A stretch of DNA of 15,696 bases from a virus (taxonomy: Duplodnaviria > Heunggongvirae > Uroviricota > Caudoviricetes): the IMG/VR virus record IMGVR_UViG_2531839178_000023. One strand, written 5' to 3'. How positions within the stretch are numbered: position 1 is the stretch's first letter; every line of letters begins with the position of its first letter. The position numbers were made by a program. Below, in pieces: positions 1 to 3,000 of the stretch.

Positions 1-3000
1 ATGCTCACTGTTAAGCAGATTGAAGCAGCAAAGCCGAAAGAAAAACCATACCGCCTTCTCGATGGTAATGGCCTGTACCTTTATGTCCCTGTGTCAGGGA
101 AAAAGGTATGGCAGCTTCGCTACAAGATTGGCGGTAAGGAGAAAATCCTGACCGTCGGAAAATATCCGCTTATGACTTTGCAGGAGGCAAGGGATAAAGC
201 ATGGACTGCGAGGAAAGACATCTCGGTTGGCATCGATCCGGTAAAAGCGAAAAAGGCTTCGTCTAACAACAATTCCTTTAGTGCAATTTACAAGGAATGG
301 TACGAACACAAGAAGCAAGTCTGGTCAGTAGGGTATGCGACTGAACTTGCAAAAATGTTTGATGACGACATTTTACCCATCATCGGCGGTCTTGAAATTC
401 AGGATATTGAGCCGATGCAACTGCTGGAAGTAATCCGCAGATTTGAAGATCGCGGTGCAATGGAGCGAGCCAACAAGGCCCGCAGAAGATGCGGCGAGGT
501 TTTCCGTTACGCTATTGTCACTGGTAGGGCTAAATATAACCCGGCACCTGACCTTGCAGACGCCATGAAAGGATACCGCAAGAAGAACTTCCCGTTTCTT
601 CCAGCAGACCAGATCCCTGCATTCAACAAAGCACTGGCAACATTTTCAGGAAGCATCGTATCGCTCATTGCGACCAAAGTTTTACGCTACACAGCCCTAA
701 GAACGAAAGAGCTTCGTTCTATGCTATGGAAGAACGTCGATTTTGAAAACAGGATTATCACCATCGACGCCAGTGTGATGAAGGGACGCAAGATTCATGT
801 TGTCCCGATGTCGGACCAGGTGGTTGAACTTCTCACTACGCTAAGCTCAATCACCAAACCAGTATCAGAGTTTGTTTTTGCCGGGCGCAACGATAAGAAG
901 AAGCCAATCTGCGAGAACGCGGTATTGCTTGTGATCAAACAAATCGGCTATGAGGGTCTGGAAAGCGGTCACGGATTCAGGCATGAATTCAGCACGATTA
1001 TGAACGAGCACGAATGGCCCGCTGATGCTATTGAAGTGCAACTGGCACATGCCAACGGCGGTTCTGTGCGTGGAATTTACAACCATGCGCAGTATCTCGA
1101 TAAGCGCAGAGAAATGATGCAGTGGTGGGCGGATTGGATTGATGAAAAGGTAGAGTGATCGACCTTAACCACTATCGAATGTCACAAAGCCTTGTGTATC
1201 TCAGTTTTGTCTCATCAACCACAGCAAGTCATCGATCGATTGAGGCTTGGATGATAGACTTCATGCCTTTCAGAACTCATTGATTAAATAAATGTTAAAG
1301 CTATTTGCAAAGTACACCTCTATTGGTGTACTGAACACCCTTATACACTGGGTGGTTTTTGGTGTTTGTATCTATGCCGCGCATACAAACCAAGCTATGG
1401 CGAACTTCGCAGGTTTCATAGTAGCTGTAAGCTTTAGCTTCTTCGCGAATGCAAAATTCACATTCAAAGCATCGACTACAACGATGCGTTACTTGTTATA
1501 CGTGGGATTCATGGGAACCTTGAGTGTTGTCGTCGGGTGGGCTGCTGATAGATGTTCACTTCCTCCAATTGTCACTCTTGTCACCTTCTCCGCCATCAGC
1601 CTGGTGTGCGGTTTCGTCTATTCAAAGTTCATTGTCTTTAGGGATGCGAAATAATGAAGATATCTCTGGTCGTTCCTGTCTTCAATAAAGAAGAAGCGAT
1701 ACCAATTTTTTATAAAACGGTACGTGAATTCGAAGAGTTGAAGCCATATGAAGTGGAAATTGTTTTCATAAATGATGGAAGCAAAGACGCTACGGAGTCA
1801 ATAATTAACACTTTGGCTGTTTCTGATCCGCTAAATAGCTGCGCTTAATACCGCTACACTTTTGCCAGTCCATGTTTGCCAGTCCATGTTTGCCTCCGGG
1901 GAATGGGCTGACGGTTTCCATAAAATGGCGAACTTTTTTCAACAGTTGCCACATTGAGCGGCACTGATGATTACGCGTTATTGTGTCGTGAAGTGCCTGC
2001 CATAGCCGTTCAACATGATTCACCCATGGCGAGTAAACCGGCTGATAAATGACCCTGAACTTCGGGTTCTCCTTCAGCCAGCTCTGTGTTTCCCGGCTTT
2101 TGTGGATAATGTAGTTGTCCACGATCAGCGTGATGGTTTTCGCCCGACGCTATGTCGCTTTAAGCCGCTTCAGCAGGCTGATGAACAGCGCCGAACTTTT
2201 GCTGTTGCCGCCCACATAGCTGACTTTACCTGTCCCGCTGTGCAGCGCTCCGGCCAGATAATATTTTTCATTCTGTCCCGGCGTGACCACCCGTTTTTGC
2301 TGTCCGCGCAGTTGCCAGTCCGCACCGATTTTGGGATGAAGATGGATATCCACTTCATCTTCATAAAAGACCGGATGCTCTGCGCTGCATTCGTCCAGTG
2401 CTTTATGGATTGCTGCCATCTTTTCATCTTTATGCGGGTCACGGATACGCAGAGTTGGCGCAGCCCTTCGCCACACAATCCCCGCAGACGGCAACCAGCG
2501 GCGAACGGTTCCGGCATTTAACTGGCAACCGGTTATCTCATTGATTTTTATTGCCAGCAGTTCTGTACTCCAGCGTGAACGCTGGTAGCCAAAGTCGCCG
2601 GGAGAATGTTTTACCAGCTCACGTAACAGTGTGCAGATATGCTCAAACGGCCAGCGACGGGCACGCCCGGCAGGTAATGATTTCAGTCCCTCAACACCCG
2701 ACTGCGTGAACCAGTTAATCCAGCGTCCAACAGAGGAACGGGCGCAGAAGAGCGTTCTGGCAACGTCGCTGACACGGTCGCCCCGGTGCAGCATCAGCAT
2801 GGCAGTCAGTCTGCGGGCATAATTTTTATCGTGTGTTTTATGGATGGCTTTCTGCATCAGGCGTCGTTCGTCACGGGAAATTGGTGCTATGATCGGCATT
2901 GCTCAGTCCGGTTGGTGATTTGTTTTGATTTGGCGATTGATCAGATCGCACAATCCGGGCTAAGTTCCCTCAAAGTGATCTACTATTCCGCGCAGCTATT

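What the first reader, a model, noticed from the sequence alone, without database searches (positions are those of the whole stretch)
1157..1291. Upstream region of gtrA has only two GATC sites, unlike the four-site phase-variation switch of Salmonella gtr operons
In Salmonella, gtr operons phase-vary through Dam methylation of paired GATC sites within OxyR half-sites. This 135-bp leader has GATC at 1157-1160 and 1234-1237 (77 bp apart, the second in an ATCGATCGAT palindrome), and I see no clear OxyR half-site pairs. Epigenetic switching here is doubtful but not excluded.
Basis: partly seen in the sequence, partly recalled or inferred. Interest (0 to 1): 0.2.

Follow-up and report, generated by a model that had tools for sequence, protein, structure and literature searches.

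The report
Ordinary gtrA promoter, no methylation switch
The stretch between the prophage integrase gene and gtrA holds an ordinary promoter that keeps only one of the four methylation sites of the Salmonella on/off switch, has no binding sites for the switch protein OxyR, and drives an operon that is already broken in this genome.

Summary
GATC occurs only at 1157-1160 and 1234-1237, and ATCGATCGAT lies at 1231-1240. Two sites in 135 bp is not beyond chance (about 0.06).

GATC 1234 is the homologue of GATC-4 of the phage P22 gtr switch. It sits inside the -35 hexamer TCGATC of a conserved extended -10 promoter (TGaTAGACT, 1252-1260). The predicted start is 1267.

GATC 1157 overlaps the intS stop codon (GAG TGA TC). 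It happens to lie exactly where P22 has GATC-1 (-110), but this is a coincidence:
- E. coli K-12 and another strain lack it.
- About 60% of IntS-type integrase gene ends carry it whether or not gtr follows.
- Its distance to GATC-4 is usually 97 bp. It is 77 bp only in a sublineage with a 20-bp deletion.
- P22 and the window share no significant similarity upstream of -50.

The OxyR half-sites score 6, 2 and 4 of 10, against 8, 10 and 8 in P22. The best full site scores 13/20, which is background.

This is a non-switching gtr promoter, like Salmonella gtr LT2_II or the 45-bp P22 core promoter. The operon is dead here: IS630 interrupts gtrB and gtrC is frameshifted. Interest is low.

The parts
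1..1158 (+). intS-type prophage integrase gene (385 aa). The stop codon TGA is at 1156-1158.
   Evidence: ORF list. Pfam Arm-DNA-bind_3, Phage_int_M and Phage_integrase. 94-95% identical to annotated E. coli intS.
1157..1160 (.). Upstream GATC, formed by the last two bases of the intS stop codon plus TC (GAG TGA TCG). It coincides in position with P22 GATC-1 (-110) but is not homologous to it and is not conserved.
   Evidence: K-12 has GAGTGAGCG and strain 135 has GAGTGACCC. 85 of 133 IntS-type 3' ends have TGATC, including 46 of 77 unique junctions with no gtr promoter downstream. The P22/window similarity upstream of -50 is not significant (p about 0.30).
1183..1196 (+). Remnant (CACAAAGCCTTGTG) of a conserved inverted repeat that follows intS in relatives. 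A 20-bp deletion here removed the loop and one arm.
   Evidence: The alignment shows a 20-column gap in window, HF4s and XYEH3934. The K-12 and CH468 versions fold at -18 and -21.9 kcal/mol (z -2.6 and -3.9), the window version at -6.9 (z -0.5). The repeat is present in 40 of 42 unique E. coli-type spacers.
1231..1240 (.). Palindrome ATCGATCGAT containing the second GATC.
   Evidence: Read directly. ATCGATCGATTGAG is conserved in E. coli-type gtr promoters.
1232..1237 (+). Predicted -35 hexamer TCGATC, with GATC 1234-1237 as the homologue of P22 GATC-4 (-33).
   Evidence: Aligns with P22 TCGATC. 17-bp spacer to the -10. PMC2909390 places GATC-4 at -33 within the promoter, and PMC3688519 describes the -35 as encompassing GATC-4. 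GATC is present at this offset in about 95% of the genuine gtr promoters sampled (111 of 121 extracted regions, most of the ten without it being chance pattern matches).
1252..1260 (+). Predicted extended -10 element TGaTAGACT (P22 has TGcTACACT).
   Evidence: Alignment with P22. The core -50..+28 is significantly similar (p about 0.0015). The simple promoter scan missed it because the -35 matches only 3 of 6.
1267..1291 (+). Predicted transcription start (1267) and 25-nt 5' UTR of gtrA.
   Evidence: Inferred from the P22 start site, 25 bp upstream of the gtrA ATG (PMC2909390), and the ungapped alignment from the -10 element to the ATG. Not measured.
1292..1654 (+). gtrA (120 aa), intact.
   Evidence: Pfam GtrA_DPMS_TM covers 1-117 of 117. 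Homologous to annotated yfdG/gtrA.
1654..3743 (+). gtrB (bactoprenol glucosyltransferase) interrupted by IS630. The 5' part is 1654-1833 and the 3' part about 3001-3743.
   Evidence: Pfam Glycos_transf_2 is split between the ORFs 1654-1848 and 3048-3743. An uninterrupted E. coli homologue (L226) aligns to 1185-1833 and to 3001-3520, and the two matches meet at the same place in L226.
1832..3002 (-). IS630 copy. Its transposase reading frame is broken and it carries an internal 14-bp tandem duplication (1861-1888).
   Evidence: Terminal inverted repeats at 1831-1850 and 2984-3003. 99.7-99.8% identical to annotated IS630 on Shigella and E. coli plasmids. DDE_3/HTH domains are split over two ORFs.
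3740..5355 (+). gtrC-like gene (DUF6056) split into two reading frames (3740-4228 and 4390-5355). Probably a frameshifted pseudogene.
   Evidence: Pfam DUF6056 positions 5-159 and 227-438 fall in two ORFs in different frames. An A7 run lies just before the first stop.

Best explanation
1157-1291 is the spacer between the integrase gene and gtrA of a decayed P22-like, IntS-type (CPS-53-like) prophage. It contains a sigma-70 promoter for gtrA that is homologous to the core of the phage P22 gtr promoter: -35 TCGATC at 1232-1237, extended -10 TGaTAGACT at 1252-1260, predicted start at 1267 and a 25-nt leader.

Only the promoter-internal GATC (GATC-4) of the Salmonella switch is retained. The OxyR half-sites A, B and C, and GATC-2 and GATC-3, are absent. 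The second GATC (1157) belongs to the integrase stop-codon context. With no protein to shield either GATC from Dam, both should be fully methylated, and the promoter should fire uniformly at its intrinsic level rather than switch between ON and OFF.

In this genome the question is moot, because gtrB carries IS630 and gtrC is frameshifted.

Shown: sequence architecture, homology limits, absence of OxyR consensus, variability of the upstream GATC, and gene disruption.

Inferred: promoter position and start site, uniform methylation, and constitutive expression. These rest on analogy with published P22 deletion constructs and gtr LT2_II.
For: GATC positions.

P22 geometry: GATC1-4 at -110, -97, -46 and -33, with the start site 25 bp upstream of the ATG (PMC2909390).

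Homology limits: the alignment shows conservation from ATCGATC through the -10 and +1 region to the ATG, and nothing recognisable upstream. Local-alignment shuffles give p about 0.0015 for -50..+28 and p about 0.30 for -125..-51.

OxyR half-sites at canonical positions: window 6, 2 and 4 of 10, against 8, 10 and 8 in P22. The best full site is 13/20, which is background. Across 46 unique E. coli-type gtr upstream regions the best full site is 11-14/20.

The upstream GATC is not conserved. It is absent in K-12 and strain 135. It is present at about 60% of IntS-type gene ends whether or not gtr follows, and its spacing to GATC-4 is mostly 97 bp. The 77-bp spacing occurs only in the deletion sublineage.

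Experimental precedent (PMC2909390). The P22 -45..+34 fragment, which has only the RNA polymerase site and GATC-4, gives uniform Lac+ colonies at 349 Miller units with GATC-4 methylated. gtr LT2_II, with one GATC and no OxyR site, does not phase-vary. SCB67_I, with only the -35/GATC-4 and the -10, does not phase-vary, and there is no evidence for phase variation of the S. flexneri gtr (PMC3688519).

No full P22-type switch was found in 5426 complete E. coli genomes.

Operon decay.
Against: No expression, methylation or OxyR-binding data exist for this sequence or for its E. coli and Shigella relatives. Two full-text literature searches returned no paper containing 'yfdG' together with the Dam/OxyR terms.

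The OxyR test used a 10-position consensus count, not a calibrated weight matrix, and OxyR sites are notoriously degenerate.

The exact coincidence of the two GATCs with positions -110 and -33 is striking when taken alone.

The half-site at position A still scores 6/10, with its left arm ATCG intact.

The promoter and start site are inferred by homology only. The generic promoter scan did not call them.
Confidence: 0.82

Rival explanations
1. The promoter does not switch, but its strength depends directly on Dam methylation of the single GATC inside the -35 hexamer. Expression would then dip while the site is unmethylated or hemimethylated, for example just after replication, or on DNA newly arrived from a dam-deficient or under-methylating donor. 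This is compatible with the best explanation and refines it.
For: In P22 the intrinsic promoter (-45..+34, GATC-4 only) is less active in a dam mutant and unaffected by Dam overproduction, and a CATC-3/GATG-4 mutation directly changed promoter activity (PMC2909390). GATC at this offset is kept in about 95% of the genuine gtr promoters sampled, across both the E. coli-type and Salmonella-type lineages.
Against: Conservation of TCGATC can be explained by -35 function alone. SfV has GACC there and is a functional serotype-converting phage. The dam effect in P22 could be indirect. Nothing was measured for this allele.
Confidence: 0.25
2. This is a degenerate but still working Dam/OxyR switch. OxyR binds weakly around the GATCs at -110 and -33, whose spacing matches GATC-1 and GATC-4 of P22, and gives low-frequency phase variation.
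For: The positions relative to the gtrA ATG are identical to P22 GATC-1 and GATC-4. Position A scores 6/10. Loss of a single GATC does not always abolish switching (gtr LT2_I CATC-1, and S. Infantis gtr_I; PMC3688519).
Against: The central half-site B, which both OxyR(AB) and OxyR(BC) need, scores 2/10, and C scores 4/10. No full site rises above background. The upstream GATC is absent or differently spaced in close relatives. The sequence upstream of -50 is unrelated to P22. The 77-bp spacing arose from a 20-bp deletion in one sublineage. Salmonella operons that keep only the -35/GATC-4 do not switch.
Confidence: 0.04
3. A different methylation-sensitive regulator (Lrp as in pap, or Fur, HdfR or similar) uses one or both GATCs to make gtrA expression heterogeneous.
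For: Several non-OxyR Dam-dependent switches are known in enterobacteria (papers listed). The palindrome ATCGATCGAT is conserved in the E. coli-type lineage.
Against: The GATC contexts (GTGATCGACC and TCGATCGATT) do not resemble the pap-type GATC context, and the 77-bp spacing is not the 102 bp of pap. This comparison rests on my own knowledge and was not tested with a matrix. The upstream site is not conserved. The palindrome overlaps the -35, which is sufficient to explain its conservation.
Confidence: 0.03
4. Because the inverted repeat after intS has been deleted, gtrA in this lineage is transcribed substantially by read-through from intS, and its own promoter matters little.
For: A 14-bp-stem hairpin followed by a T-rich stretch is present in 40 of 42 unique relatives and is deleted here.
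Against: The hairpin is not shown to be a terminator. Its T-run is not adjacent to the stem, and there is no covariation above shuffles. It could be a DNA site instead. The gtrA promoter core is fully intact here. Integrase genes are normally weakly expressed in lysogens (general knowledge).
Confidence: 0.1

Closest known systems
Phage P22 / Salmonella gtr Dam-OxyR phase-variation switch (Broadbent et al. 2010, PMC2909390; Davies et al. 2013, PMC3688519)
   Same: Homologous core promoter: -35 TCGATC containing GATC-4, an extended -10, the +1 region, and a 25-nt leader to the gtrA ATG. Same operon type (gtrABC on a P22-like prophage). By coincidence a GATC also lies at -110.
   Different: GATC-2 and GATC-3 are absent. 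OxyR half-sites A, B and C score 6, 2 and 4 of 10 here, against 8, 10 and 8 in P22. The sequence upstream of -50 is unrelated. An integrase gene ends 109 bp upstream of the predicted start, where P22 has an attP-containing spacer.
Non-phase-variable gtr promoters: S. Typhimurium gtr LT2_II (one GATC, no OxyR site), S. Choleraesuis gtr SCB67_I (only the -35/GATC-4 and the -10), and the P22 -45..+34 construct sMV175
   Same: A single promoter-internal GATC and no OxyR sites. These constructs give uniform expression, and in sMV175 GATC-4 is methylated.
   Different: Those are Salmonella sequences tested by reporter fusions, whereas this allele is untested. Here a second, unrelated GATC lies at the integrase stop codon.
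gtr promoter regions of E. coli K-12 CPS-53 (intS-yfdG-yfdH-yfdI), Escherichia phage HF4s, and Shigella flexneri serotype-converting phages SfI, SfII, SfIV and SfV
   Same: About 90% identical from position 1189 onward for the Sf phages, and across the whole spacer for HF4s (91%). Same ATCGATCGATTGAG...TGATAGACTTCATGCCTTT core. Same gene order: int, then gtrA, gtrB, gtrC.
   Different: K-12 and most relatives keep a 34-bp inverted repeat after int that is deleted here and in HF4s. K-12 lacks the stop-codon GATC. SfV has lost even GATC-4 (GACC). In the Sf phages attP lies between int and gtrA. Here gtrB and gtrC are inactivated.
agn43 and opvAB Dam/OxyR switches
   Same: GATC sites near a promoter of a surface-modifying locus.
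   Different: Those have three or four GATCs embedded in OxyR half-sites that match 8-10 of the 10 consensus positions (PMC12902445). Nothing comparable is present here.

Membership tests
P22-type Dam/OxyR gtr phase-variation switch | Four GATC sites in two pairs 13 bp apart, at -110/-97 and -46/-33 relative to the start site | tested here: not met
   Only two GATCs are present, at the equivalents of -110 and -33. The bases at the -97 position (1170-1173) are CACT and those at the -46 position (1221-1224) are ACAG.
P22-type Dam/OxyR gtr phase-variation switch | Three OxyR half-sites (ATAGnTnnnAnCTAT-like, about 8-10 of 10) spaced 32 bp apart, forming the alternative sites AB and BC | tested here: not met
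   At the canonical positions 1158, 1190 and 1222 the scores are 6/10, 2/10 and 4/10, against 8, 10 and 8 in P22. The best pair at any allowed spacing is 13/20, matched by 16% of window tiles and 31% of shuffles.
P22-type Dam/OxyR gtr phase-variation switch | Core promoter with GATC-4 inside the -35 and a start site about 25 nt upstream of gtrA | tested here: met
   TCGATC at 1232-1237 and TGaTAGACT at 1252-1260 align without gaps to the P22 promoter. The core similarity has p about 0.0015. The start site itself is inferred.
P22-type Dam/OxyR gtr phase-variation switch | Mutually exclusive methylation patterns (GATC-1/2 versus GATC-3/4) in ON and OFF cells, and heritable ON/OFF expression that depends on dam and oxyR | not testable with these tools
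   This needs methylation-sensitive sequencing or restriction analysis, and reporter fusions.
Non-phase-variable gtr promoters (gtr LT2_II / SCB67_I type) | gtrA promoter with at most the promoter-internal GATC and no recognisable OxyR site | tested here: met
   The only other GATC is outside the region homologous to gtr regulatory DNA and overlaps the intS stop codon.
Non-phase-variable gtr promoters (gtr LT2_II / SCB67_I type) | Uniform (unimodal) expression from a single-copy reporter | not testable with these tools
   Experimental. Shown for the Salmonella examples only (PMC2909390, PMC3688519).
IntS-type (CPS-53-like) P22-like prophage gtr module | Gene order intS - gtrA - gtrB - gtrC, with a P22-like tailspike gene convergent downstream | tested here: met
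   Pfam assignments. 94-95% DNA identity to annotated E. coli intS-yfdG-yfdH. Phage HF4s has the same layout.
pap-type Dam/Lrp switch | Two GATCs about 102 bp apart, each inside Lrp-binding sequence | tested here: not met
   The spacing is 77 bp. The flanking sequences GTGATCGACC and TCGATCGATT are unlike the pap context. That comparison is from memory and no Lrp matrix was run.

The most novel reading that the evidence does not exclude
The one GATC that nearly every gtr promoter keeps, inside the -35 hexamer TCGATC, could make these promoters directly methylation-tuned, being stronger when fully methylated. Even 'switchless' gtr operons such as this one would then couple O-antigen glucosylation to the Dam methylation state of the prophage DNA, for example a lag after replication or after infection. 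The Salmonella OxyR switch would be a later elaboration built around that pre-existing site.
Probability: 0.2. Interest if true: 0.3.

Novelty: new member of a known kind. Interest (0 to 1): 0.08.

Why it matters
It matters little. The result shows that the E. coli/Shigella IntS-type gtr promoter belongs to the already described class of gtr promoters that lack the Dam/OxyR phase-variation signature. O-antigen glucosylation from such prophages should therefore be uniform rather than bet-hedged.

It also gives a practical rule for annotators. Counting GATCs upstream of gtrA is not enough, because one of the two here comes from the integrase stop codon. The OxyR half-site B and the 13-bp GATC pairs are the diagnostic features.

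In this particular genome the operon is inactivated, so the regulation has no phenotypic consequence.

Tried and rejected
1. The generic sigma-70 scan found no promoter in 1157-1291, because the -35 matches only 3 of 6. I used homology to the mapped P22 promoter instead.

2. I considered that the exact -110/-33 coincidence reflects a vestigial switch. I rejected this for four reasons: there is no significant similarity to P22 upstream of -50, half-site B scores 2/10, the upstream GATC is variable in presence and spacing among relatives, and the 77-bp spacing results from a lineage-specific 20-bp deletion.

3. Rfam at gathering thresholds over the whole window gave no hits, so no known leader RNA is present.

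4. An RNAalifold consensus of the inverted repeat found in relatives did not recover the long hairpin. Explicit pair counting gave 88% of cells paired but no covariation above shuffles. Its nature, terminator or DNA site, stays open.

5. An exact-match scan of species-representative genomes for the gtrB-IS630 junction found nothing, so the source strain was not identified. The IS630, IS2, IS3 and IS30 load suggests Shigella or a Shigella-like E. coli.

6. A scan of representative genomes with the promoter core gave mostly chance hits outside Enterobacterales. Only 8 genuine gtr promoters were usable.

7. Two literature searches for yfdG/gtrA together with GATC, OxyR or methylation found no study of the E. 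coli or Shigella promoter.

8. I searched for a P22-type switch in complete E. coli genomes. There were 23 partial hits and none covered at least 80% of the query.
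Full report
**Observation**

The window has GATC at 1157-1160 and 1234-1237, and the next site is at 1825. The region 1157-1291 therefore holds exactly two sites, 77 bp apart. The second sits in the perfect palindrome ATCGATCGAT at 1231-1240.

GATC is not enriched in the window: there are 48 sites against 55.8 +/- 6.5 in dinucleotide shuffles. At the window's density, 0.41 sites are expected in 135 bp, so the Poisson P(>=2) is about 0.06. The description is accurate but not statistically remarkable.

**Context**

- ORF 1-1158 is an IntS-type tyrosine integrase.
- ORF 1292-1654 is an intact GtrA.
- ORF 1654-1848 is the N-terminal 64 residues of GtrB.
- The DNA is 94-95% identical to E. 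coli intS-yfdG-yfdH, the CPS-53 type.
- The spacer is 91% identical to the P22-like Escherichia phage HF4s, which has the same order int-gtrA-gtrB-gtrC.

gtrB is interrupted at about 1833 by an IS630 copy. Its inverted repeats lie at 1831-1850 and 2984-3003, and it is 99.7-99.8% identical to annotated IS630. An uninterrupted E. coli homologue aligns to 1185-1833 and to 3001-3520, and the two matches meet at the same place in that homologue.

The gtrC-like DUF6056 gene is split between two frames, at 3740-4228 and 4390-5355. Downstream lie an acyltransferase gene, a P22-type tailspike gene, three more IS elements, and ssb, abc2 and ead/ea22. The locus is a decayed P22-like prophage, and the gtr operon is non-functional.

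**Comparison with the Salmonella switch**

Broadbent et al. (PMC2909390) mapped the P22 gtr start site 25 bp upstream of the gtrA ATG. They placed GATC-1 to GATC-4 at -110, -97, -46 and -33. The two pairs lie in OxyR half-sites A and C, with half-site B between them.

In the P22 sequence (L001) I located the three half-sites at -109 (ATCGGTAACAACGAT, 8/10), -77 (ATAGATAAAAACTAT, 10/10) and -45 (ATCGCTTGTATCGAT, 8/10). They are 32 bp apart.

Transferring the start site by the ungapped alignment between the -10 element and the ATG gives a predicted start at 1267. The two window GATCs then fall at exactly -110 and -33, the positions of GATC-1 and GATC-4. That coincidence needed testing.

**The downstream site is homologous**

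- ATCGATC, the extended -10 element (window TGaTAGACT, P22 TGcTACACT) and the +1 region (window TTCATGCCTTTC, P22 TTCAGACCTTTC) align without gaps.
- The -50..+28 segment is significantly similar, with 0.15% of shuffles reaching the observed score.
- GATC 1234 therefore lies inside the -35 hexamer TCGATC, as GATC-4 does in P22.
- Of 121 upstream regions extracted with the core-promoter pattern, mostly from viral contigs, 111 have GATC at this offset. Most of the ten without it are chance pattern matches with unrelated flanks, and the clear gtr exception is SfV, which has GACC.

**The upstream site is not homologous**

1. The -125..-51 segments of P22 and the window are no more similar than shuffles (p about 0.30).

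2. GATC 1157 is formed by the intS stop codon plus two bases (GAG TGA TCG). E. coli K-12 has GAGTGAGCG and strain 135 has GAGTGACCC, so neither has a GATC there.

3. Among 133 IntS-type gene ends sampled from viral contigs and other loci, 85 have TGATC. Of the 77 unique junctions with no gtr promoter downstream, 46 still have it. It is a feature of the integrase gene end, not of gtr regulation.

4. Where a gtr promoter follows, the distance from this GATC to GATC-4 is most often 97 bp. Spacings of 82, 85, 86, 93, 95 and 96 bp also occur. The 77-bp spacing is seen only in the window/HF4s group.

5. That group shares a 20-bp deletion that removes the loop and one arm of an inverted repeat present in 40 of 42 unique relatives. 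The deletion produces the 77-bp spacing.

**OxyR sites**

At the canonical positions the window scores 6/10 (1158, left arm only), 2/10 (1190) and 4/10 (1222, right arm only). The best half-site anywhere in 1140-1300 scores 7/10.

The best pair at spacings of 21-23 or 31-33 bp scores 13/20. It lies downstream of the predicted start. 16% of 161-bp tiles of the window and 31% of shuffles equal or exceed it.

Across 46 unique E. coli-type gtr upstream regions the best pair scores 11-14/20, against 18/20 for P22. Functional OxyR half-sites in the related opvAB switch match 8-10 of the same 10 positions in S. enterica subsp. enterica (PMC12902445).

A full P22-type regulatory region was not found in any of 5426 complete E. 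coli genomes.

**Mechanism**

The architecture that remains is a core promoter with GATC-4 and nothing else. This was tested directly in Salmonella:

- The P22 -45..+34 fragment gives uniform Lac+ colonies at 349 Miller units, with GATC-4 methylated.
- gtr LT2_II, with one GATC and no OxyR site, does not phase-vary.
- S. Choleraesuis gtr SCB67_I, with only the -35/GATC-4 and the -10, does not phase-vary.
- Davies et al. note that there is no evidence of phase variation for the S. flexneri gtr operon.

I therefore conclude, with about 0.8 confidence, that this is a constitutive, non-switching gtrA promoter whose GATCs are fully methylated.

A refinement is that methylation of the -35 GATC modulates promoter strength. 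This is suggested by the lower activity of the P22 core promoter in a dam mutant, but it is untested here.

Loss of the inverted repeat after intS might allow some read-through into gtrA. The repeat is conserved but shows no covariation above controls, so whether it is a terminator is unknown.

**Verdict**

The locus is an ordinary member of the known class of gtr promoters without the Dam/OxyR signature, in an operon that is already inactivated. Interest is low.

Noticed in passing
window 1183-1196; relatives L124:262-297, L126, L002: A 34-bp inverted repeat (CACAAAGCCTTGCA-N6-TGCAAAGCTTTGTG) follows the integrase gene, or attP, in 40 of 42 unique E. coli/Shigella-type gtr upstream regions. 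A 20-bp deletion removes it in the window, phage HF4s, E. coli XYEH3934 and two viral contigs. It folds well as RNA (-18 to -25 kcal/mol), but there is no covariation above shuffles, so whether it is a terminator or a DNA-binding site is undecided.
   Followed up: partly
window 1271-1291, compared with HF4s, K-12 and CH468 (alignment A2): The gtrA 5' UTR exists in two unrelated 21-nt versions: CAGAACTCATTGATTAAATAA in the window, SfV and strain 135, and GATTATTAGCTGATAGAAGAA in HF4s, K-12 and CH468. The versions switch exactly after CCTTT at the predicted start site. This is a sharp mosaic junction between the promoter and the gtrA allele.
   Followed up: no
window 1832-3002: The IS630 copy in gtrB is itself degenerate. 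It has a 14-bp tandem duplication (TTTGCCAGTCCATG x2, 1861-1888), and the transposase is split into two ORFs (2150-2899 and 1805-2122, minus strand).
   Followed up: partly
window 3740-5355: The gtrC-like DUF6056 gene is in two reading frames. The first ends at 4228, just after an A7 run (about 4213-4219). No close full-length homologue was found in complete E. coli genomes, where matches cover only the first 39% of 3000-5400 at about 75% identity.
   Followed up: partly
window 5449-6522: An intact 357-aa Acyl_transf_3 gene lies between gtrC and the tailspike gene. It is possibly an O-antigen O-acetyltransferase and is perhaps the only surviving serotype-converting gene of the prophage.
   Followed up: no
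window 9986-14844: Nested and clustered IS elements. An IS3-family orfB (9986-10825, minus strand) is separated from an orfA (12027-12377, minus strand) by an IS30-like transposase gene (10956-12107, plus strand). An IS2-like element lies at 13571-14844 (minus strand). They flank phage ssb (12528-13034) and abc2 (13048-13341). With IS630 this makes four IS elements in 15.7 kb, typical of Shigella-like genome decay.
   Followed up: partly
loci L005, L016, L023, L033, L056, L233 (Citrobacter), L257 (Franconibacter), L283 (Erwinia dacicola): Many Salmonella-type gtr promoters keep GATC-3 and GATC-4 in an OxyR(C)-like ATCG-N7-CGAT but lack half-site A. Thirty-one bp upstream, an 8/10 OxyR-like half-site overlaps a canonical LexA box (CTGTATATGCATACAG) belonging to a divergent gene. 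This may be a repressor-only OxyR(BC) arrangement, or an interplay between the SOS response and OxyR.
   Followed up: no
locus L002 (phage SfV) position equivalent to window 1234-1237: SfV has GACC instead of GATC in the -35 hexamer. It is the clear case among the gtr promoters examined that lacks GATC-4, while other S. flexneri prophage copies (L271, L032 and others) keep GATC.
   Followed up: no
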